Positions 1,533 through 20,775 of a stretch of DNA of 64,000 nucleotides are shown here, piece by piece. Source of the stretch: Escherichia phage iGC_PHA_EC001; the sequence record OR437326.1; one strand, 5' to 3'. The position numbers and the translations under genes are program-made. The stretch's first letter is position 1; the number at the start of each line of letters is the position of its first letter. The notes below the pieces were generated by a model. It did not search any database and had not been told where the DNA came from. It was given only the letters and a program-made list of their open reading frames with translations.

Positions 1533-3019
1533 TGGACGAATATGGTTTGACAGATGCGGGATTTGTAATCCCGACTTTTGACGATGTTTTAAACAACTAC
1601 ATGACAGCAGTAAAAAACACATTTGGTGCAGATGCAGCCACTTCGGAAGATACTGTAATCGGACAACTGTTTAGAATAATTGCATACACAGATTACACAT
1701 TGTGGGAAGGTATGCAAGGTGTTTATAATACTCAAACACTAGATGGTGCAGAAGGTATTTATCTTGACGAAATCTTTTCTAAACGCGGTTTCTATCGAGC
1801 AGGGGCAGCAGCAAGTACAGGTTATGCCTATGTTAAGAGTAATAACAAAGCAGCTTGGACTTATGAGCTAGGCACGGATATTTACTTCAACTCTGATAGT
1901 GATATGAACTACTATGTTAGCACACCGACTATGTTGAATGCTAAGATTGCAGCTTATCAAATCTCTCGTGCTAATGCAACTGCTACAGGTGTTCCAAATA
2001 TTACTTTTTATGCACAAAGTGCGGTAGATGGAGGACTAAACAGTAAAACACTTGCACCTGGTTCTTCTACATTTATAACCGATCTTGAAACTTTTATCAA
2101 GGCAAATTTAACAGAAGCTGATCGTAGTCTTGTATTTTCTGATTCAGGTAACTTATCAATTGGTTTTACTTCTTTAACTAGTGATACTCCAGTGGGACTG
2201 GTAACTCCTATTAAATTTTATGCTAGTGTTCCGGTTGGAACCAAGTGGAGTGAGATTCCGGTAGTTGCAGCAGAGAAAGGATACAACCCTGTTGGCGTGG
2301 AGTCTATTACAGGGATATCTTCTACCTTTACAGGTTATCTTGACAGTGGTAACTTTTATTCATTTTCTCCTGGTCGGGATGTTGAGACAGACGCAGAATT
2401 CCGCTCTCGTTTCAATGACAACGTTGATGAAGCTAACGCAGGGACACGAGCAGCTATTGTGAAAGCTCTGCTACTTACAGATGGTGTTACTAAGGTGAAG
2501 ATTTATGATAACCCTACATTACATGATCAAGAACATGCTCCAGCTATGACTTTCCAGACTATAGTTTATGGTGGCAGTGCAGAAGAAATTGCAAATGTTA
2601 TCTATAAAACCAAACCAATCAACACTTTGACACATGGAACAACCAACATAACTGTTACAACAGAAGACGGAGGACAAGAAATTATTCGCTTCTCCCCTGG
2701 TGCTTCTGCTATGTATTCTGTAAAACTTGTTTATCAAACTGTCAACGGAACAACTTTAAGTGGAACAGAAAAACAAAACATCGTAGAAGCTTTACAAAAC
2801 CTGCAAGCTTACTTTGAATTAGGTTCTTCAGTAACGAACGATCAAATCAAAGGTGTTATTTATGCAGCACTTGCTTTTGGACGCTTGACTTCTCTTCGTG
2901 TTTATGTTAAACTTAATACTGAGGATGACAGTAAATATACAGAGAATAATATAGTTCCTGCTTATAATGTTGTCCCTTCTTTTGACCTTGATAACATTTC
3001 TTACGAGTATGGAGTGTAA
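1532..3019 (+). CDS. Baseplate J-like (gp47/gpJ family) protein
   Basis: 495 aa; start overlaps upstream stop; position and size fit a baseplate wedge protein ahead of an I-like protein and tail fibres; family assignment from memory only. Confidence 0.4.
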   Translation: MDEYGLTDAGFVIPTFDDVLNNYMTAVKNTFGADAATSEDTVIGQLFRIIAYTDYTLWEGMQGVYNTQTLDGAEGIYLDEIFSKRGFYRAGAAASTGYAYVKSNNKAAWTYELGTDIYFNSDSDMNYYVSTPTMLNAKIAAYQISRANATATGVPNITFYAQSAVDGGLNSKTLAPGSSTFITDLETFIKANLTEADRSLVFSDSGNLSIGFTSLTSDTPVGLVTPIKFYASVPVGTKWSEIPVVAAEKGYNPVGVESITGISSTFTGYLDSGNFYSFSPGRDVETDAEFRSRFNDNVDEANAGTRAAIVKALLLTDGVTKVKIYDNPTLHDQEHAPAMTFQTIVYGGSAEEIANVIYKTKPINTLTHGTTNITVTTEDGGQEIIRFSPGASAMYSVKLVYQTVNGTTLSGTEKQNIVEALQNLQAYFELGSSVTNDQIKGVIYAALAFGRLTSLRVYVKLNTEDDSKYTENNIVPAYNVVPSFDLDNISYEYGV

Positions 3020-3021
3020 AA

Positions 3022-3651
3022 ATGGCAGTGAGTGTTGACCATGTAACAACTTGGGCCAGTATCAATGAAGACGTTAAAAACCTTCTGATTGAAGATTTTA
3101 AATCTTCTCCTAACATTGTCAAGCTCCTCTACATCGTATCCAGTGAAAAGCAAAAGATAGATCAGGCAATGATCTATCTTGCTAAACACCGCTTGATCTC
3201 TACAGCTACAGGCAAATACCTAGATATTCTAGGGGAAGAAATGGGGATCGAACGTAATGGCTCTGATGATGAAGAGTATAGAACAATATTAAAAATCAGG
3301 GCTTACCGCGTAGCCTCATCGGGGACTCGTGGTGACATAATTGATATCTTCGCCCGTTTCACAGGAACAGAACGTGAAACGCTTAATACTTACGTAGGTT
3401 TGAATAAAACCTTTGATGTGTTTTTCTACAACCTGTGTCTTCAATCTGATCAAGCTTTAGAGCAGTTGCTAAGTGTTTTCCCTATTATTAGTAGCTACCG
3501 TCTTGGAGCAAAAGCAGGATCAGCTTTTGGTTTTAGTTCTTATTATGCTACCAAACCGCCTCATGGTATTGGTGGTTTAGGTTCCCTGTACATGGAATCT
3601 ACTGGGGATGAAACAGGACGCATGTGTACGCTTCTCAAGCAAATAGATTAA
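3022..3651 (+). CDS. Baseplate/tail protein I-like
   Basis: 209 aa directly after the J-like gene, in the J-I-fibre-chaperone order seen in P2-type baseplate modules. Confidence 0.35.
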   Translation: MAVSVDHVTTWASINEDVKNLLIEDFKSSPNIVKLLYIVSSEKQKIDQAMIYLAKHRLISTATGKYLDILGEEMGIERNGSDDEEYRTILKIRAYRVASSGTRGDIIDIFARFTGTERETLNTYVGLNKTFDVFFYNLCLQSDQALEQLLSVFPIISSYRLGAKAGSAFGFSSYYATKPPHGIGGLGSLYMESTGDETGRMCTLLKQID

Positions 3652-3660
3652 GGAGTTTAA

Positions 3661-4722
3661 ATGGCGAAGCCAATATATTATCCTGACTGGGCTACACAAA
3701 CTGTAACGCTCCCAGGAACTTTAAACACAAACAAAATTAGACCTAAAGAAACCATCCGCACAATTGGTATGGATTATGGTCAAATCATGACTTGCGAAGA
3801 GATGAACTGGATTCTTAATAATATCGGTTTATGGATTCGCTATTTGGTGGATGATTTTCTTCCAACTTTACCTAATACCTACTTGCCTTTAGTGGGAACT
3901 AAGATTACAATGGCAGGTGATGCTACTGGTGAGGCCACTTGGAACGGTAACAAAGAAGTTACTTTATCTATCCAAGTTCAAGATAACAGTCATAATCACT
4001 TGTCAGCAAACATTACAGATGCTACTAGTTCAACAGTAACACCAAACGTGTTGGTAAAACGTGATGCGGGTGGTGCTATTTATGGTGGTGATGTTTATGT
4101 TAACGGTACTTCCACAACAGATCCTGCAACACTGTTCTTCAAAAACTTTGCAGGACAAACAAATGGTGAGATTTCTGCCGAATACCAAAGTGGAGGTCAG
4201 CTTTATATTTATCGTAGAAATCCTAGCACAGGTAGTGTATCAGCAGGTGTTCGTTTATATGATGCAGGTTATGTTCTAATAGACAGTCCAAGATCAAACA
4301 GTGGACAAGATACTTCTAACGGAAATGCTTTAGTTCGCTTAGATTATCTGAATTCTCGTTTGACTTCTCTTCAGAACACATTGCAGACGAATATTAACAC
4401 TGTTCAAAACAACCTGAATAGTGTTAACAGCAACCTCTCTTCCCGTATAAACAATGTAGAAAGTAATCATCAAAATCAGATTACAAATAACTACAATTAT
4501 GCTAACGGAACATTTGTAAGAGATATTCGTTATACTAGCCAAGGTGTGTATTATCCACCAGGGAACGAGGTTTCTTGGACTTATATCTGTTCTTCTGGTT
4601 ATGTTCTTTCTGGTATTATTGTACAGGAAACAGGACGTAGCTCTGCGGATAACATCGGTGGGGTTTACTTCAAACGCCTCCAGCGCAACGTTAACGGAAA
4701 CTGGTACGATATTGGAGGCTAA
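3661..4722 (+). CDS. Tail fibre protein
   Basis: 353 aa; Asn/Ser/Thr-rich heptad segment LQNTLQTNINTVQNNLNSVNSNLSSRINNVE; immediately followed by a fibre assembly chaperone. Confidence 0.65.
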   Translation: MAKPIYYPDWATQTVTLPGTLNTNKIRPKETIRTIGMDYGQIMTCEEMNWILNNIGLWIRYLVDDFLPTLPNTYLPLVGTKITMAGDATGEATWNGNKEVTLSIQVQDNSHNHLSANITDATSSTVTPNVLVKRDAGGAIYGGDVYVNGTSTTDPATLFFKNFAGQTNGEISAEYQSGGQLYIYRRNPSTGSVSAGVRLYDAGYVLIDSPRSNSGQDTSNGNALVRLDYLNSRLTSLQNTLQTNINTVQNNLNSVNSNLSSRINNVESNHQNQITNNYNYANGTFVRDIRYTSQGVYYPPGNEVSWTYICSSGYVLSGIIVQETGRSSADNIGGVYFKRLQRNVNGNWYDIGG

Positions 4723-15831: not shown

Positions 15832-16044
15832 TTAATCTTCCTCCAGATCAATTTCATTATAACAATGTATACAGAAACCATCATTGTGCATATGTTGTTC
15901 ATAAGACATATCTTTACCACAAGACCAACAACGGATATCCCCATCGTCCCATTCACGTTCTTCTTCGCCTTCAAATTCATCTGGTAGGTAAGGCATACCA
16001 AAATAATCTAAATCGTAACTCATATCTTCTCCTACCGAGTCCAC
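15832..16044 (-). CDS. Small acidic zinc-ribbon protein
   Basis: CWSCG..x18..CIHC four-Cys arrangement; acidic termini. Confidence 0.3.
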   Translation of the reverse strand: MDSVGEDMSYDLDYFGMPYLPDEFEGEEEREWDDGDIRCWSCGKDMSYEQHMHNDGFCIHCYNEIDLEED

Positions 16045-16622
16045 TCCTTACGTTGTTCAATATGTTCAAGCATATCGTTATACAATGTTTTAAGATGTGG
16101 AACAACTCTTTGATCTTCTGTTTCAAAAAACTTTGTAAGCTGTTCTGCTTTAGCTTTCAACCAACAAAGATGTGCCTCAAGTTCAGTATCAAAACGTCCG
16201 AGCGTTATAATACGACCATCTACTTTTATATGGGCTTTATATTTCTTACGATCTTTTTCGTAATAGAAGCCTACCATAGTGCCATGAGATCTTTTACTTA
16301 CCCTGTAAGCTAAAAACTTGTTAAGATCCCCTGTTACTAAAAGGCAGGTGGCGGGAGAGTAAACTCTCCCTCCTATGATATCTTTATCGAGTTCTAAGTT
16401 TTCCCAGTTATCCCAAGTTTTCAACCAAGTATAGAAGTTGGAAAACAGTTTCCATTCTTCACAGACCGTCACTCCATGATAACAAGGATCACGTTCTTGT
16501 TGGCAAGGGGAGTAACATCTCCCCAACATAGCCATCCATTTCATATAAGCAGGATGAGTTCCATGTTTATCCTTCACCACAATATGTCCATCGAAAACAC
16601 CAACACCATATACTGTTCGCAT
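16032..16622 (-). CDS. AP2-like DNA-binding protein (homing-endonuclease-associated type)
   Basis: YMKWMAMLGRCYSP..YHGVTVCEEW and MVGFYYEKDRKKYKAHIKVDGRIITLGRFDTELEAHLCW resemble phage DNA-binding modules of AP2 type. Confidence 0.35.
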   Translation of the reverse strand: MRTVYGVGVFDGHIVVKDKHGTHPAYMKWMAMLGRCYSPCQQERDPCYHGVTVCEEWKLFSNFYTWLKTWDNWENLELDKDIIGGRVYSPATCLLVTGDLNKFLAYRVSKRSHGTMVGFYYEKDRKKYKAHIKVDGRIITLGRFDTELEAHLCWLKAKAEQLTKFFETEDQRVVPHLKTLYNDMLEHIEQRKEWTR

Positions 16623-16648: not shown

Positions 16649-19600
16649 TCAATGACATGTGGCCCAAGAGTTACCCACATCATATCCGGCAGTAAGCTGA
16701 ACGTTAAGATTGTAAAATTCTCCAGCCTTAGTAACAGCTAAAGCAGCAAGTTCTCCTGCCCGACTATAAGCTGTAAACCATCCACCTTTGGGAGATTCAT
16801 GAATGTTAGCCCAAATTTGTCCCGTTTCTTTTTCCTTATTATGCTTCCATTCTTCAACTTTAGCAAGGCATTCTTTATCAATTTTCTTTTGTTCTTCGGG
16901 ATCGTCTACTTTCTTCCAACCTAATGATTCAGGTGAAAACCATTTAAATTCTACAAGGTTACGAGAAACTTCAAGCTGGGCTTCATCGTGATATGCAATC
17001 ATTTGTTGCACGAAATCTTTATTCTTCCAGTCATCTTTAAAGAAGTCAACACTTAGTCCTTCTTCTTCGATCATGTCGTCATAAATAACCATTGCACGTT
17101 TAGCACAGATAACCCCACCACTTTGGAACAGAGAGTTAAGAATCGCGTGAGCAGAACGAGTAGGAACCTTACGACCGTCAATACCCAAAACATATTGTTT
17201 ACCAGTCTTAACCCAAAAATCGTTTAAACGTTCTTTAAGACGCGCCAATGGGAATGCAGCTTCCCAGAAAGCATCAAACACCAATTGACCTGTAAACTTA
17301 TCGCTACCAATTGTTTTAGCAACCTTGTCGGCTTGTGCACCATAGGTAATACCATACTTAACAGATTTAGCAGGACTACGTTCAAATTTACGTCCAATAG
17401 TTTCAGTAATACGTTTTGCCATCATTGTGTGAACATCATTAGGTTTCTCTAACAACAGAGCGTTACAATACTCGTGTGGCTCCGGCTCGTACCGCCAACA
17501 GTTTCCTGTGATGGTAATGCAGTCTTTCTGACGCATGACCCACGTACCAAGTTCTGTTTGTGGACACCAAACATCCTCTACACCCCACTCTTCAATAGTC
17601 AAACTTTGAACAGGAATGTGAGAGCGGTTAGTCAATGTTGCCACTTTTACTTTCTGCTCTTTTGTATTGAAAGCTACAGAGATATTGCCTCCATGCACCA
17701 GGTACGAGGCAGTTAAAGCTGCTTCAAAAAGTTCACCTGGGTTCTGCGCCCAACGCCAAACAGGTTTTTGTTTATGTTCGTGCCAGTAACCATCTGCAAT
17801 CAAGAAACCTTCCAAGAAAGCTACACGCTCGGCATGAGACATATTAACTACACGTTCTACCCACGGAACATCCCATTTACCTTGTTGAACAGAAGTTAAA
17901 CTATTTACCTGATCTTGTTCCATGTTAAATGGAGCATTACAAATAATGTTATCTCCTGTGCAAAGCTCGGCAGTTGTTCTGACTTTAGGCACATAAGTAT
18001 TCCCTTTACTACGGGTATTAACATACCAACGGTGATCTGCTGTTGCACGGTAAGTGTGTGATTTCCCTTTAATCTCAAACGTCTTACTATTTTTATAGAA
18101 GACCTTACCTTTTACTTTAGTCCATTCTTTCAGACCTGTTTCAGCATTGTACCCTAAAATCTCATCCCCTTCCTTCAGGTCGTGATATCCTACCCAACCT
18201 TTACGAGTCAAAGCTTGAGCATCCATCGGCACACAGTAGTGTGATTCAATTTTTGCTTCCAAAGAGTCGAAGTCGTAGCCGATCTGGAAGTATTTAGGAA
18301 CCTCTACACCAAACAAGTTACGCATCTCCCACCCAAACAAAGATGTGACACGAGGAATATTAGCTACAGATCTATGCTTCATACGAGAGGTTGCAGCATC
18401 ACATGTAGCGGCTGGGGTAGGAATACGCCCATCCGCCCTTACTGCGGCTAAGAAACCTTTATCGTATTCTTGATCTTCTTCATCTTCTTCCCAATCAGCA
18501 CCGCCACCTAAAATAGAGTTCCTACGATGCTTATACGTTAAGTATTCTACAATCTGTGTAGCATAAGGAAACTTCTCACTCAAAGCTTGCAGGTTAGGAC
18601 AAATTTCTTTTTCCTGACCTTTGGTAAAACACGGGTTAGTCAATACTTTAAGACCGCGACCTTTACCTTTTGCTATACGCTCTTGAATCTTCCTTTCCAG
18701 GGTTTCCGGTGTGCACTCCAGATGATCACAACGATCCTGACAAAAATTAGAAGATAGAGTTTGCTCAACGTAAGCTCGGATACCTTTCTGAAGTTCTTCC
18801 TCGCTCTTTTTAATCTTGGTGCCAGATTTAAGAGTCAAGTCTTTATCTTTATATTCAGACGGTACCCAACCTAATCCTACAAGCCAGTTTTTAATATGGG
18901 TTGTATCGTTTAATGTTGCAGGAATGTTAGGATCACATAGAGGTTCATCTGCTGCAACTGGCAGTTTCCACTCTTTCCCCAACATAACTAACCACCAATC
19001 GCCATCCCTCTCTTCCAAATGACCATCATGTTTCTTAGCAAAATTGATCATATGGTTAGTTGGCTCTAAGTTCTTTTTAATTTGCAACTTAGGTGGAATA
19101 AAAGCCTTAAGATAACCTTTTGTTGCTGGTTTAGGTGGCAAAATAGGCTCAACGAGTAAACGAAGACGCTCCATTTCTGCATCCAAAAAAGCAAGGTTCT
19201 CTTCTGCTTGTTTCATGTTAAAAGCAAACCCACGGTGTTCCTGGCGTGTAATAATGTCTGCTACACGTTGTTCAAGTTCAAATGGACCTTCCCATTTATC
19301 ATAATCACCCCATTCTTCCATAAGGTAATTATATACACTTGTATTGGCTTTGTTGTCATAGATACAGTAATAAAGCATATCCGCAGCAAAAGTCTTAAAT
19401 CGATCTTCTTCTGGAATCTCTTTACGGAAATCTATTTTTACATCACCACCTGCTTTTCGAGAAAGTGCTGCCAAACTATGTCCTGATTTGCCCTCAATCT
19501 TTCGATCTGGGTTTAACACTTTACTCAAAATCAAGGAGTCAATAAGTTTTACCTTATTTTTGCCCCACGTATTATATTTAACACTGTAATCTAATCCATA

Positions 19601-19981
19601 AAACAGTTTTGTAGCCAACCAGTCGTAGTTGATACCGTTGTGAGCCACAGCCATTTCAACCAGATATTCAGGCTTGTCTTTAAAATAACCTTCATGATTA
19701 ATAAAATCTGGGAAATCTTTTAGTTGAAAATGTGTGTAATCTTGCGCCACATACTCTTTAAGAACATATGTGTATTTACCATCTGACTCTTCATAAGGAC
19801 GCCCATCAAAGATGTATTTAGGGCCATCGTGGAAAGCTACTATTTCTCCTGTTTCATGGTTCTCTAAGACAATACAGTGCATTTGAAATGTGTCTTTGAG
19901 ACGATAAGGACTAGCTAAATAATCAATAGTGTCATTATTCAACAATCCGTTTGCTTCAATATCCCATGTAAACTTACTCAC
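16649..19981 (-). CDS. DNA polymerase, family A, with 3'-5' exonuclease domain and an intein insertion
   Basis: Exo I WDIEANGL, Exo II HNGINYDWL, Exo III YYCIYDN; motif A DFDSLEAKIESHY; motif B RSPAKSVKYGITYG; about 245 extra aa between motifs A and B. Confidence 0.85.
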   Translation of the reverse strand: MSKFTWDIEANGLLNNDTIDYLASPYRLKDTFQMHCIVLENHETGEIVAFHDGPKYIFDGRPYEESDGKYTYVLKEYVAQDYTHFQLKDFPDFINHEGYFKDKPEYLVEMAVAHNGINYDWLATKLFYGLDYSVKYNTWGKNKVKLIDSLILSKVLNPDRKIEGKSGHSLAALSRKAGGDVKIDFRKEIPEEDRFKTFAADMLYYCIYDNKANTSVYNYLMEEWGDYDKWEGPFELEQRVADIITRQEHRGFAFNMKQAEENLAFLDAEMERLRLLVEPILPPKPATKGYLKAFIPPKLQIKKNLEPTNHMINFAKKHDGHLEERDGDWWLVMLGKEWKLPVAADEPLCDPNIPATLNDTTHIKNWLVGLGWVPSEYKDKDLTLKSGTKIKKSEEELQKGIRAYVEQTLSSNFCQDRCDHLECTPETLERKIQERIAKGKGRGLKVLTNPCFTKGQEKEICPNLQALSEKFPYATQIVEYLTYKHRRNSILGGGADWEEDEEDQEYDKGFLAAVRADGRIPTPAATCDAATSRMKHRSVANIPRVTSLFGWEMRNLFGVEVPKYFQIGYDFDSLEAKIESHYCVPMDAQALTRKGWVGYHDLKEGDEILGYNAETGLKEWTKVKGKVFYKNSKTFEIKGKSHTYRATADHRWYVNTRSKGNTYVPKVRTTAELCTGDNIICNAPFNMEQDQVNSLTSVQQGKWDVPWVERVVNMSHAERVAFLEGFLIADGYWHEHKQKPVWRWAQNPGELFEAALTASYLVHGGNISVAFNTKEQKVKVATLTNRSHIPVQSLTIEEWGVEDVWCPQTELGTWVMRQKDCITITGNCWRYEPEPHEYCNALLLEKPNDVHTMMAKRITETIGRKFERSPAKSVKYGITYGAQADKVAKTIGSDKFTGQLVFDAFWEAAFPLARLKERLNDFWVKTGKQYVLGIDGRKVPTRSAHAILNSLFQSGGVICAKRAMVIYDDMIEEEGLSVDFFKDDWKNKDFVQQMIAYHDEAQLEVSRNLVEFKWFSPESLGWKKVDDPEEQKKIDKECLAKVEEWKHNKEKETGQIWANIHESPKGGWFTAYSRAGELAALAVTKAGEFYNLNVQLTAGYDVGNSWATCH
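17501..18235 (-). mobile_element. Intein with LAGLIDADG homing-endonuclease domain, inside the DNA polymerase
   Basis: Starts at Cys583 right after motif A (CVPMDAQAL, then GDEIL); block B TADHRW; AELCTGDNII; LAGLIDADG-like FLEGFLIADGYW; ends ITGN followed by Cys (aa 583-827). Confidence 0.55.
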
Positions 19982-20775
19982 TATTCCTCCTTTCTAATGT
20001 TCTCCAGAACCCACTGAAGTTCTTTTAAACTTAAACTTCTTACTCCCGCAGTTTTACTAGCTTCAGCTTTAAGTAACGGGTAAGCCTCAATGATACGCGT
20101 TTTAAGATCAGAAGTCAAGGCTTTTAAAAAGTAGGTAGATGCTTCAGATAAAGAATCTTCTTCTGATAACACTTTACCTGCACTTGCTCCCGCTCTCCTA
20201 ACGGCTATATCGTAGTCTTTACTGTTACCTAATACGAACAGTTGATTCTCTCCTAAAACAACGGGAGAACGCTTCTCGTTGCGTTTAATCCATATCTGGA
20301 ATACACAAGGAACATCCCAAGGTTCTCCATGAAGAATAAAAGATCCTTTTGGACATTCTTCTTCGTAAAGAAGATGCATGTGGGGATTTAGTTTGTGTGC
20401 AAAAAAGATTTTTTGAAATGTGCGAGGCAAGATAAAACAAATACCACCTTCGTTATCCAACATTTCAGCACAATGGTTAAAGAACTTAATGGCAAGACTA
20501 GCATTTTTTCCAAACGGAGGATTACCGACAAAAGCAGTTACACTACCAACAGACTCAACAGATTGAGCTAAAAAATCTGCCTCAATACAATCTTCAAACT
20601 TAGGGTCAATATCAAAAGAAGTTATGTTTTTAAAACAAGAAGAGAAAGCCCCTTCTCCCGCAGATGGTTCTACGTAGTTAGCTTCCTCTCCAAAAATTTC
20701 TTTGATCTTATCACATAAGAACCCCGCATAAGCGGGGTTAGTGTAATATTGATCAAGTGTGTTCAACTTGCTCAA
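19981..20775 (-). CDS. DNA N6-adenine methyltransferase
   Basis: DQYYTNP, SAM-binding VEPSAGEGAF, catalytic GNPPFG (NPPF). Confidence 0.7.
   Translation of the reverse strand: MSKLNTLDQYYTNPAYAGFLCDKIKEIFGEEANYVEPSAGEGAFSSCFKNITSFDIDPKFEDCIEADFLAQSVESVGSVTAFVGNPPFGKNASLAIKFFNHCAEMLDNEGGICFILPRTFQKIFFAHKLNPHMHLLYEEECPKGSFILHGEPWDVPCVFQIWIKRNEKRSPVVLGENQLFVLGNSKDYDIAVRRAGASAGKVLSEEDSLSEASTYFLKALTSDLKTRIIEAYPLLKAEASKTAGVRSLSLKELQWVLENIRKEE

What the first reader, a model, noticed from the sequence alone, without database searches (positions are those of the whole stretch)
17501..18235. LAGLIDADG intein inserted between motifs A and B of the DNA polymerase
The polymerase has about 245 extra residues directly after motif A (DFDSLEAKIESHY), beginning with Cys and ending Asn-Cys. 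Inside are intein blocks (GDEIL, TADHRW, AELCTGDNII) and a LAGLIDADG-type FLEGFLIADGYW. This is a selfish element embedded in the catalytic core of an essential enzyme; the penultimate residue is Gly rather than the usual His, which is worth confirming.
Basis: seen in the sequence. Interest (0 to 1): 0.6.

Follow-up and report, generated by a model that had tools for sequence, protein, structure and literature searches.

The report
Unusual intein in phage DNA polymerase
The 245 extra residues in this coliphage DNA polymerase are a real, mobile self-splicing intein. It is already annotated in sister phages, but it belongs to a large, little-described family that combines the hallmarks of two intein classes and carries only half of the usual homing endonuclease.

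Summary
Window 17501..18235 (minus strand) encodes 245 aa, Cys1...Gly244-Asn245, followed by Cys+1. It sits 7 residues after the motif A Glu of a T7-like family A polymerase (gene 16649..19981). Sister phages phAPEC8 and Mt1B1_P17 lack exactly these 245 aa and have identical flanks. The predicted fold matches only inteins, best of all those that carry a homing endonuclease. The same element is already annotated as an intein in phages PaulScherrer and SD2, so its existence is not new.

Three points go beyond that annotation.
- The penultimate Gly is a family trait, not a defect. 125 of 126 relatives end T-G-N. No His occurs in blocks F or G, and a basic residue sits at B:11, as in the characterised AceL NrdHF intein.
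- The intein has the class 3 Trp-Cys-Thr triplet (W70, C224, T243). It also keeps the class 1 apparatus (Cys1, Thr65, His68). All six residues are about 100% conserved in 127 relatives.
- It has one LAGLIDADG half-domain, not two. That domain is under purifying selection (omega 0.05).

The intein is much less diverged at synonymous sites than its host gene, which indicates transfer between phage genera. Splicing chemistry and endonuclease activity are inferred, not shown.

The parts
16649..19981 (-). Family A (T7-like) DNA polymerase precursor gene, 1110 aa including the intein; the spliced product would be 865 aa
   Evidence: ORF list. Pfam DNA_pol_A and PHROG 17. 98% nucleotide identity to Phapecoctavirus polymerases. 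Alignment to T7 DNA polymerase at E 2e-17.
18236..19981 (-). N-extein (aa 1-582), ending ...DFDSLEAKIESHY
18257..18274 (-). Polymerase motif A, DFDSLE (D570, E575), which aligns to T7 DASGLE
17501..18235 (-). Intein, 245 aa, Cys1 to Asn245
   Evidence: Precise indel relative to phAPEC8 and Mt1B1_P17. AlphaFold HINT fold, pLDDT about 90 in the splicing domain. All top Foldseek hits in the PDB are inteins. Annotated as an intein in PaulScherrer.
18215..18235 (-). Block A, CVPMDAQ; Cys1 is 100% conserved in 127 relatives
18026..18043 (-). Block B, T65-A-D-H68-R69-W70: Thr B:7, His B:10, basic B:11, Trp B:12
   Evidence: Conservation is T 100%, H 100%, R/K 96%, W 99%. These are the same positions as S65/H68/R69/M70 of the AceL NrdHF intein.
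17621..17872 (-). Single LAGLIDADG half-domain (intein aa 122-205), predicted alpha-beta-beta-alpha-beta-beta
   Evidence: AlphaFold secondary structure, pLDDT 62-81. The domain profile's PDB hits are mostly LAGLIDADG enzymes, though weak at E 0.1-2. LAGLIDADG_3 matches 7 of 27 relatives. Omega is 0.046.
17783..17818 (-). The only LAGLIDADG motif, FLEGFLIADGYW (putative catalytic Asp148, Gly149); the conserved Gln164 lies in WAQN at 17741..17752
   Evidence: D148 is 89% D plus 8% E, G149 98%, Q164 98%. The Gln aligns with I-DmoI Gln in ITQK.
17528..17575 (-). Block F, DVWCPQTELGTWVMRQ; Cys224 (17564..17566) is at F:4, 21 residues before the terminal Asn as in the class 3 inteins MchDnaB1, Msm DnaBi1 and MP-Be DnaB; no His here
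   Evidence: C224 is 100% conserved. Spacing compared with residue numbers given in the papers. No His after residue 206.
17498..17518 (-). Block G, ITITGN, plus Cys+1: Thr243 (G:5), Gly244 (G:6), Asn245 (G:7), Cys+1
   Evidence: T 100%, G 99%, N 100%. The +1 residue across the family is S 65, T 31, C 30.
16649..17500 (-). C-extein (aa 828-1110 plus stop), with motif B RSPAKSVKYGITYG (17339..17380) and motif C YHDEAQ (16976..16993)

Best explanation
Window 17501..18235 (minus strand) encodes a functional, horizontally mobile intein. It interrupts the only replicative family A DNA polymerase of a Phapecoctavirus-like coliphage, 7 residues after the motif A glutamate. After translation the 245-aa element folds into a HINT domain, excises itself and joins ...IESHY to CWRYEP..., giving the 865-aa polymerase seen in intein-free sister phages.

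The chemistry is inferred. Cys1, positioned by Thr65 and His68, makes the first thioester. The invariant block F Cys224, held by Trp70 and Thr243, sits between the two junctions. It either relays the acyl group or coordinates its transfer to Cys+1. Asn245 then cyclises without any block F or G histidine, probably helped by Arg69 at B:11. That is the role shown for Arg69 in the related AceL NrdHF intein, where Gly at the penultimate position is required.

The inserted 84-aa domain is one LAGLIDADG half-domain with its catalytic Asp and Gln conserved. I infer that two inteins dimerise to form a homing endonuclease, which cuts intein-free polymerase alleles during co-infection and copies the intein in.

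What is shown: the anatomy, the precise presence/absence polymorphism, the fold, family conservation, purifying selection, and lower synonymous divergence than the host gene. What is inferred: splicing itself (about 0.9), which cysteine initiates (Cys1 essential about 0.6; Cys224 essential about 0.6), and an active dimeric endonuclease (about 0.4).
For: Anatomy and polymorphism.
- The indel is exact, and the flanks are identical in empty-site alleles for 45 nt upstream and 29 nt downstream.
- The spliced sequence aligns to T7 polymerase without a gap across the junction.

Fold and sequence relatives.
- The AlphaFold model has pLDDT 78.6, about 90 in the HINT part.
- All 47 Foldseek hits in the PDB at E<=1e-3 are HINT-superfamily proteins, nearly all of them inteins. 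The best are the endonuclease-bearing inteins TliVMA, PhoVMA, PI-SceI and PI-PfuI.
- The HINT-only family profile hits solved inteins, best AceL NrdHF at E 4.8e-7.
- GenBank annotates the same element as an intein in PaulScherrer and SD2.

Family conservation.
- The profile finds 7234 hits and 524 at E<=1e-30.
- 126 of 126 full-length members start with Cys, and 125 of 126 end T-G-N.
- C1, T65, H68, C224, T243 and N245 are 100% conserved; W70 and G244 are 99%; B:11 is R/K in 96%.

Precedents.
- AceL NrdHF ends T144-G145-N146. Its G145H mutant is dead, and R69 contacts the C-scissile carbonyl (PMC7891396).
- A phage intein with penultimate Gly splices completely (PMC5050341).

Selection and mobility.
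- Window versus PaulScherrer: intein dS is 0.44, while the N-extein is saturated and the C-extein is 1.24. Omega is 0.024 for the whole intein and 0.046 for the endonuclease domain.
- Identical codons at conserved residues are 77-79% in the intein and 43-60% in the exteins.
- About 34 of 127 related phage records carry the intein, and intein-free polymerases are as close as 98.9%.
- These phages are viable lytic isolates. The window has no other family-A polymerase ORF that I saw; this is an inference, not exhaustively checked.
Against: - No experiment on this intein was found.
- Pfam Intein_splicing and LAGLIDADG_3 score below their curated cut-offs on this sequence.
- There is only one LAGLIDADG motif, so a monomer cannot form the usual two-helix active site.
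- The empty site shows no palindromic symmetry: 8 of 18 matches, below the gene-wide mean. This does not fit a simple homodimer on a symmetric target.
- Cys at F:4 with W and T is the signature of class 3 inteins, in which Cys1 is not needed, so the order of nucleophiles is open.
- The AlphaFold alignment was shallow (9 sequences), and the endonuclease domain has only moderate confidence.
Confidence: 0.85

Rival explanations
1. It is a true class 3 intein that happens to keep a Cys at position 1. Cys224 attacks the N-terminal junction directly and forms a block F branched thioester. Cys1 is dispensable.
For: The complete WCT triplet is present at the canonical positions: W two residues after His B:10, Cys 21 residues before Asn, Thr two residues before Asn. 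In InBase, 34 of 37 WCT inteins lack an N-terminal nucleophile and 3 have Ser1 or Cys1 (PMC2807308). The best sequence match among solved structures is the experimentally proven class 3 AceL NrdHF intein, which has the same T-G-N end and Arg at B:11. 76% of family members have Ser or Thr at +1, as is typical of class 3. From memory only: Tori and Perler 2011 may have shown class 3 splicing for WCT inteins with Ser1 or Cys1. That paper was not readable here.
Against: Cys1 is invariant in 127 relatives that are often under 55% identical, and Thr B:7 is also invariant. Thr B:7 'spring-loads' position 1 in class 1 inteins and is generally lost in class 3 (PMC6195587). A dispensable residue would have drifted. 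Canonical actinobacterial class 3 inteins match the family profile only weakly (Msm DnaBi1 E 0.5). The operational definition used for 1701 class 3 inteins requires no Cys at the N-end (PMC7891396).
Confidence: 0.3
2. The intein splices, but its endonuclease is a dead remnant (half of a former two-motif enzyme). The element is now inherited vertically or moved only by general recombination.
For: Relatives in nepoznato, Pseudomonas phage KIL1 and Gordonia phages Twinkle and GordTnk2 have two LAGLIDADG motifs, and the window intein aligns only to the second. Mini versions with no endonuclease domain also exist (P0005, P0008, P0009). The target site is not palindromic. Pfam and PDB profile hits for the domain are weak.
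Against: The half-domain architecture (median 250 aa) is shared by 126 diverged family members, with acidic D148 at 97%, G149 at 98% and Q164 at 98%. Omega is 0.046 in this domain; against KP13-16, synonymous sites are saturated but only 14 of 217 non-synonymous sites differ. Intein dS is far below extein dS between genera. Intein-free alleles with intact sites coexist in phages that are 98.9% identical. A decaying remnant should not be conserved like this.
Confidence: 0.25
3. Homing is driven not by the intein's own domain but by the free-standing HNH-like gene just downstream of the polymerase (16032..16622), in a collaborative arrangement.
For: The ORF matches PHROG 953 'HNH endonuclease' at E 8e-75. 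It is absent from intein-free phAPEC8 and Mt1B1_P17, and present downstream of the intein-containing polymerases of the window, EF1-1 and PaulScherrer.
Against: There is no general correlation. Many intein-containing phages (anhysbys, WPEC1-6, ECO340P2 and others) are not among the listed hits of 60% identity or more for this ORF. Several phages that have the ORF (alia, JohannJBalmer, EmilieFrey, nieznany) are not among the hits for this intein. The ORF matches only the C-terminal half of the PHROG profile.
Confidence: 0.05
4. The segment is not an intein but a lineage-specific polymerase domain, or an artefact.
For: Curated Pfam and NCBIfam models do not call it.
Against: It is precisely absent from polymerases that are 98-99% identical. 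The fold, the sequence blocks and the terminal residues are all those of an intein. The same module occurs at three or more different sites in unrelated family A polymerases and in other proteins.
Confidence: 0.01

Closest known systems
Intein annotated in Escherichia phage PaulScherrer (MZ501100, bas60_0044, 'intein-containing DNA polymerase precursor') and in phage SD2 (PQ821640)
   Same: It is the same element at the same site: 245 aa, 97.6% amino-acid and 92% nucleotide identity.
   Different: It sits in a different genus (Justusliebigvirus), whose polymerase is only 73-80% identical at the nucleotide level. The GenBank mat_peptide is shifted by one codon (V...NC instead of C...N), which is possible because ACTGT is repeated at both junctions. 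I found no mechanistic description in the papers searched.
AceL NrdHF naturally split class 3 intein (PDB 6zgq; PMC7891396)
   Same: It is the best sequence match among solved structures (E 4.8e-7). The numbering is identical for His68 and Arg69. It has a block F Cys, ends T-G-N, and lacks His at both F:13 and G:6.
   Different: AceL has Ala1, Ser65 and Met70 (an MCT triplet), is split, and has no endonuclease. The window intein has Cys1, Thr65 and Trp70, is contiguous, and carries a LAGLIDADG half-domain.
Canonical class 3 inteins (MP-Be DnaB, Msm DnaBi1, MchDnaB1)
   Same: The WCT triplet is at the same block positions, with the Cys 21 residues before the terminal Asn. The family is also phage-associated.
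   Different: They lack an N-terminal nucleophile and usually the block B Thr. They keep the penultimate His and sit in helicase P-loops. Sequence similarity to this family is weak (E 0.5).
Mycobacteriophage Bethlehem gp51 (RDF) class 1 intein (PMC5050341)
   Same: It is a phage intein with a penultimate Gly that splices to completion, and G-to-H slows it. It also has a LAGLIDADG endonuclease.
   Different: It is not detectably related by tblastn, is 317 aa long, and is reported to have two LAGLIDADG motifs.
Two-motif relatives: the motif B intein of phage nepoznato polymerase, Pseudomonas phage KIL1 PolA, Gordonia phage Twinkle tape measure protein and GordTnk2 TerL
   Same: They have the same catalytic signature: C1, TxxHxW, [WF]C, and T-[GS]-N followed by C, S or T. 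Identity is 28-34%.
   Different: They are 324 aa or longer with two LAGLIDADG motifs, and they sit at other insertion sites.
Homodimeric single-motif LAGLIDADG enzymes (I-CreI, I-MsoI)
   Same: They have one LAGLIDADG helix per chain, with a conserved acidic residue and a Gln at the end of the second strand.
   Different: They are free-standing, about 160 aa long, and cut pseudo-palindromic sites. Here the domain is about 84 aa, is embedded in a HINT domain, and the target is not palindromic. I found no report of a single-motif endonuclease inside an intein.

Membership tests
Intein (HINT protein-splicing domain) | In-frame insertion that is precisely absent from orthologous host proteins | tested here: met
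   phAPEC8 and Mt1B1_P17 polymerases lack exactly aa 583-827, and the flanks are identical.
Intein (HINT protein-splicing domain) | Nucleophile at position 1, TxxH in block B, C-terminal Asn, and a nucleophile at +1 | tested here: met
   Cys1, Thr65/His68, Asn245 and Cys+1 are present, and all are invariant in 127 relatives.
Intein (HINT protein-splicing domain) | HINT fold | tested here: met
   The AlphaFold model has pLDDT about 90 in the splicing domain. All significant Foldseek hits in the PDB are inteins, BIL domains or Hedgehog.
Intein (HINT protein-splicing domain) | Score above the curated Pfam cut-off (Intein_splicing, Hint) | tested here: not met
   16.6 bits against 35.8. Among relatives, 6 of 21 match Intein_splicing and 6 of 21 match Hint at E<1. 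The family profile hits solved inteins at E 5e-7.
Intein (HINT protein-splicing domain) | Penultimate His (block G:6) | tested here: not met
   The residue is Gly244, and it is Gly in 99% of relatives. This feature is common but not obligatory (PMC5050341 and PMC7891396).
Intein (HINT protein-splicing domain) | Protein splicing actually occurs | not testable with these tools
   It is inferred from the essential host gene in viable phages and from an omega of 0.024.
Class 1 inteins | Cys, Ser or Thr at position 1, with Thr B:7 and His B:10 | tested here: met
   C1, T65 and H68 are each 100% conserved.
Class 1 inteins | Typical block F:4 Asp and the assisting His residues at F:13 and G:6 | tested here: not met
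   F:4 is Cys224, and there is no His after residue 206.
Class 3 inteins | Trp B:12, Cys F:4, Thr G:5 triplet | tested here: met
   W70 99%, C224 100%, T243 100%. The spacing is identical to MchDnaB1, Msm DnaBi1 and MP-Be DnaB.
Class 3 inteins | No nucleophile at position 1 (original and operational definition) | tested here: not met
   Cys1 is invariant. Definitions are in PMC2807308 and PMC7891396.
Class 3 inteins | Ser or Thr at +1 | tested here: not met
   The window has Cys+1. Across the family the +1 residue is S 65, T 31, C 30. Bvi IcmO is the only class 3 intein cited with Cys+1.
Class 3 inteins | Membership of the monophyletic class 3 clade | tested here: inconclusive
   The best PDB sequence hit is class 3 AceL NrdHF (4.8e-7), but class 1 DnaX and NrdJ-1 follow closely and Msm DnaBi1 scores E 0.5. 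No phylogeny was made.
Class 3 inteins | Cys F:4 is the obligate first nucleophile (block F branched intermediate) | not testable with these tools
   This needs C1A and C224A mutants and detection of the intermediate.
LAGLIDADG homing endonuclease | LAGLIDADG helix ending in an acidic residue, with an alpha-beta-beta-alpha-beta-beta core | tested here: met
   FLEGFLIADG with D148. AlphaFold predicts H134-148, E150-154, E157-164, H168-180, E184-189, E197-202.
LAGLIDADG homing endonuclease | Two LAGLIDADG helices available in one chain, as in all characterised intein endonucleases | tested here: not met
   There is one motif only, and the first half-domain of the two-motif relatives is missing.
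LAGLIDADG homing endonuclease | Score above the curated Pfam cut-off | tested here: not met
   LAGLIDADG_3 scores 12.8-14.6 bits against 22.5. 7 of 27 relatives match at E<1.
LAGLIDADG homing endonuclease | Site-specific DNA cleavage and homing | not testable with these tools
   Only indirect evidence exists: omega 0.046, low dS relative to the host gene, and a presence/absence polymorphism.

The most novel reading that the evidence does not exclude
This coliphage intein represents a large natural family (hundreds of 50%-identity clusters, mostly in phage family A polymerases). The family is a living intermediate between class 1 and class 3 inteins. Both the N-terminal Cys with its TxxH apparatus and the class 3 Trp-Cys-Thr triad are functional. 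Splicing would run through a Cys1 to Cys224 to +1 acyl relay without any assisting histidine. Its homing endonuclease would be an obligate dimer of two single-LAGLIDADG inteins, an architecture not described for any intein.
Probability: 0.2. Interest if true: 0.7.

Novelty: new variant of a known kind. Interest (0 to 1): 0.45.

Why it matters
An intein in a phage polymerase is ordinary in itself, and this one is already annotated. Two features would interest intein specialists.

First, one paper describes the WCT triplet as found only in inteins that lack an N-terminal nucleophile. The same paper argues that class 3 inteins are unlikely to have evolved from class 1, because the intermediate would need many simultaneous changes (PMC7664689). 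Here there is a big family in which both sets of catalytic residues are invariant. That is exactly the intermediate state. It sits in E. coli K-12 phages of a public collection, where C1A and C224A mutants and phage crosses are easy to make. The divergent-versus-convergent origin of class 3 splicing therefore becomes directly testable.

Second, a conserved single-LAGLIDADG half-domain inside an intein implies a dimeric intein endonuclease or some other unknown partner. That would be a new way to build a mobile intein and a compact scaffold for engineering.

In practice, His-free T-G-N inteins related to the fast AceL NrdHF intein could be useful splicing tools. Annotation pipelines also miss them: Pfam and NCBIfam give no call.

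Tried and rejected
- Pfam, NCBIfam and PHROG scans of the insert alone gave only sub-threshold hits or none.
- A single-sequence search against the PDB gave nothing significant. Only family profiles reached solved inteins.
- A 39-aa block F/G fragment against the PDB gave only chance hits.
- Composition (GC content and skew) shows nothing distinctive for the insert.
- The test for a palindromic homing site, expected for a homodimeric enzyme, was negative.
- I considered the downstream HNH-like ORF as the real homing nuclease and rejected it, because its distribution does not follow the intein.
- A six-frame scan of the whole window with the family profiles found no second intein.
- I tried to read Tori and Perler 2011 (which expanded the class 3 definition), Brace 2010, the phi92 genome paper and the supplement of Tori 2010. 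None is held. What those papers say about WCT inteins with Ser1 or Cys1 is therefore cited from memory only.
- Literature searches for this intein in phAPEC8, phi92 or Stephanstirmvirinae phages found no description. [quoted passage not shown]
- The Foldseek ranking does not separate class 3 from class 1 mini-inteins.
Full report
**1. Observation**

The window is a Phapecoctavirus-like (Stephanstirmvirinae) E. coli myophage. The polymerase region is 98.6% identical to Phapecoctavirus 536P1 and 98.4% to phage EF1-1. The polymerase ORF lies on the minus strand at 16649..19981 (1110 aa).

Residues 583-827 map exactly to 17501..18235. They number 245 aa, start CVPMDAQ, end ITITGN, and are followed by Cys.

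**2. It is an insertion, not a polymerase domain**

phAPEC8 (865 aa) and Mt1B1_P17 polymerases read ...KIESHY|CWRYEPEP... and lack exactly these 245 residues. At the DNA level the empty-site alleles are identical to the window's flanks for 45 nt upstream and 29 nt downstream.

With the insert removed in silico, the polymerase aligns to T7 DNA polymerase at E 2e-17 with no gap across the junction. HY|CW corresponds to T7 HF|MA. Motif A is DFDSLE, matching T7 DASGLE (D570, E575). Motif B is RSPAKSVKYGITYG (868-881) and motif C is YHDEAQ (997-1002).

**3. It is an intein**

Curated models are weak on this sequence: Intein_splicing scores 16.6 bits against a cut-off of 35.8, LAGLIDADG_3 scores 12.8 against 22.5, and NCBIfam and PHROGs give nothing. 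Other evidence is strong.
- An AlphaFold model built on 9 aligned relatives has pLDDT 78.6, about 90 in the splicing domain. It shows an all-beta HINT body with an inserted alpha/beta domain.
- All 47 Foldseek hits in the PDB at E<=1e-3 belong to the HINT superfamily, nearly all of them inteins. The best are the endonuclease-bearing inteins TliVMA, PhoVMA, PI-SceI and PI-PfuI (E 8e-8 to 4e-6).
- A HINT-only family profile hits solved inteins at E 5e-7 to 7e-6.
- GenBank already annotates the same element as 'intein-containing DNA polymerase precursor' with an intein mat_peptide in phage PaulScherrer (97.6% aa identity). Phage SD2 carries the same product name. The BASEL paper says its inteins were identified by comparative annotation (PMC8594841).

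I found no paper describing the element. [quoted passage not shown]

**4. Distribution and mobility**

Of 127 phage records matching the polymerase, about 34 carry this intein at 90% aa identity or more. Others, such as phAPEC8, Mt1B1_P17, SKA64 and tuntematon, are 98.4-98.9% identical in the exteins but lack it.

Between the window and PaulScherrer (genus Justusliebigvirus), the intein is 92.1% identical at the DNA level and the exteins are 72.7% and 79.9%. By Nei-Gojobori, the intein dS is 0.44. The N-extein is saturated and the C-extein dS is 1.24. Among conserved residues, 77-79% of intein codons are identical against 43-60% in the exteins. The first 50 or so downstream codons are raised to 67-72%, which may be a short co-conversion tract.

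The intein copies therefore share a more recent ancestor than their host genes. That is the signature of horizontal spread by homing. Omega is 0.024 for the whole intein.

**5. The penultimate Gly is a family trait**

A profile of the first relatives (A1) was searched against 1.84 billion cluster representatives. It found 7234 hits at E<=1e-3 and 524 at E<=1e-30. Among the best 150 there are 126 full-length inteins with a median length of 250 aa. All 126 begin with Cys, and 125 end T-G-N. The +1 residue is Ser in 65, Thr in 31 and Cys in 30.

In a MAFFT alignment of 127 sequences, G244 is 99% conserved. There is no His anywhere after residue 206 of the window intein, so both the F:13 and G:6 assisting histidines are absent. 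Position B:11 is Arg or Lys in 96% of members.

The best sequence match among solved structures is the AceL NrdHF intein (6zgq, E 4.8e-7). It has His68, Arg69 and T144-G145-N146 and lacks the same two histidines. In that intein G145H abolishes activity because it clashes with Arg69, which contacts the C-scissile carbonyl (PMC7891396). Independently, the Bethlehem gp51 phage intein with a penultimate Gly splices to completion, and G-to-H slows it (PMC5050341).

**6. A hybrid catalytic signature**

Class 3 inteins are defined by Trp at B:12, Cys at F:4 and Thr at G:5, together with the absence of an N-terminal nucleophile. The block F Cys is their first nucleophile (PMC2807308, PMC5222942).

The window intein has H68-R69-W70. 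Its Cys224 lies exactly 21 residues before Asn245, the same spacing as Cys124/Asn145 in MchDnaB1, Cys118/Asn139 in Msm DnaBi1 and Cys320/Asn341 in MP-Be DnaB. It also has Thr243. Conservation across the family is W70 99%, C224 100% and T243 100%.

Yet Cys1 and Thr65 (B:7) are also 100% conserved. Thr B:7 'spring-loads' position 1 in class 1 inteins and is generally lost in class 3 (PMC6195587).

Tori et al. noted that 3 of 37 WCT inteins had Ser1 or Cys1. [quoted passage not shown] Hoffmann et al. excluded N-terminal-Cys inteins from their class 3 set by definition. Beyer et al. describe the WCT motif as found only in class 3 and consider a class 1 to class 3 transition improbable (PMC7664689).

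By definition, then, this intein is not class 3, because a defining feature was tested and not met. It is not a typical class 1 intein either. I commit to Cys1 initiating, because invariance of Cys1 and Thr65 implies use. Cys224 would have an essential relay or coordinating role. The pure class 3 reading stays a serious rival (0.3). Mutants C1A and C224A would decide the question.

**7. Only half an endonuclease**

Two-motif relatives exist in isolated phages. They all share the C1 / TxxHxW / [WF]C / T-[GS]-N signature:
- the 324-aa intein inserted in motif B of the nepoznato, ukendt and nieznany polymerases (SVKYG|C...TLTGN|CTYGAQ);
- Pseudomonas phage KIL1 PolA;
- the Gordonia phage Twinkle tape measure protein;
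- GordTnk2 TerL.

The window intein aligns only to their second LAGLIDADG subdomain. Its inserted domain (aa 122-205) is predicted as alpha-beta-beta-alpha-beta-beta. The same compact architecture is shared by the 126 family members.

Within the domain, D148 is acidic in 97% of members, G149 is 98% conserved and Q164, at the end of strand 2, is 98% conserved. In a weak profile alignment that Gln pairs with the Gln of I-DmoI ITQK. Omega in this domain is 0.046. Against KP13-16, synonymous sites are saturated while only 14 of 217 non-synonymous sites differ.

A monomeric half-domain cannot form the two-helix LAGLIDADG active site, so I infer dimerisation of two inteins. The evidence against this is that the empty site is not palindromic and that sequence matches to LAGLIDADG families are weak. 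I found no report of a single-motif endonuclease inside an intein. That is absence of evidence in the library searched, not proof.

**8. Host range of the family**

The extein flanks of the family members show a preference for family A polymerases, at three or more sites:
- ...TGR..H|SPN(M/L)AQIP, before motif A;
- the present site, ...E.R...HY|[TC][WY][RK]Y (P0031, P0043, P0062);
- motif B, ...AK...YA|[TCS].YG.

A protein with the junction FDVYP|SAYANGWA accounts for 35 members. Mini versions without the endonuclease domain also exist (P0005, P0008, P0009).

**9. Verdict**

As 'an intein in a phage polymerase' it is already annotated and unsurprising. Three aspects go beyond what I could find described: the class 1 plus class 3 hybrid signature, the His-free T-G-N terminus, and the single LAGLIDADG half-domain, all conserved across a large and mostly metagenomic family centred on phage PolA. 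These are testable in tractable E. coli phages. All mechanistic statements are inferences from sequence, a predicted fold, conservation and experiments on relatives.

Noticed in passing
window 16032..16622 (minus strand): A 196-aa ORF lies directly downstream of the polymerase. It matches PHROG 953 'HNH endonuclease' (E 8e-75), but only the C-terminal half of that profile, and it has no Pfam hit. It is absent from phAPEC8, Mt1B1_P17 and nepoznato, which have two small ORFs there. Only phage EF1-1 has a copy at 95% identity or more, and Justusliebigvirus phages have copies at about 82%. It looks like a separate free-standing homing-endonuclease-like insertion, and its distribution does not follow the intein.
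   Followed up: partly
L003 (phage nepoznato MN850571) locus 3001-3972; the equivalent window position is 17354/17355, between the Gly and Ile codons of motif B KYG|ITYG: Sibling phages (nepoznato, ukendt, nieznany, AV126, phiWec187) carry a different, 324-aa, two-LAGLIDADG intein of the same family inside polymerase motif B. The native Ile is replaced by Cys at +1. These alleles also have Thr instead of Cys at the +1 position of the window's insertion site (ESHY-TWRYDNPD).
   Followed up: partly
L001 (PaulScherrer MZ501100) locus 3004-3738, versus window 17501..18235: The GenBank intein mat_peptide is shifted by one codon (Val...Asn-Cys) relative to the chemically sensible Cys1...Asn245. The 5-nt string ACTGT is repeated at both junctions (CACTAC|TGTGTG and GGAAAC|TGTTGG), so the DNA-level boundaries are ambiguous.
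   Followed up: yes
Proteins P0015 (inteins at 288-545 and 567-809) and P0020 (294-552 and 574-801): Two metagenomic proteins each carry two single-LAGLIDADG inteins of this family only 21 residues apart. The two half-domains could in principle pair within one precursor.
   Followed up: no
Phage records MG065639, MG065645, MG065656 and MG065689: Four records of about 146 kb labelled 'Campylobacter phage' (A150, A145, C3, A110a; host C. jejuni) contain a Phapecoctavirus-type polymerase with the nepoznato-type intein. The similarity to the query is the same as for E. coli phages, so the host label may be wrong or the records may be contaminated.
   Followed up: no
window 19979..19983: The polymerase GTG start (19979..19981) overlaps by one base the stop codon of the upstream 264-aa N6-adenine methyltransferase-like ORF (19981..20775). 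This suggests translational coupling. The 865-aa annotation in phAPEC8 is consistent with this start.
   Followed up: no
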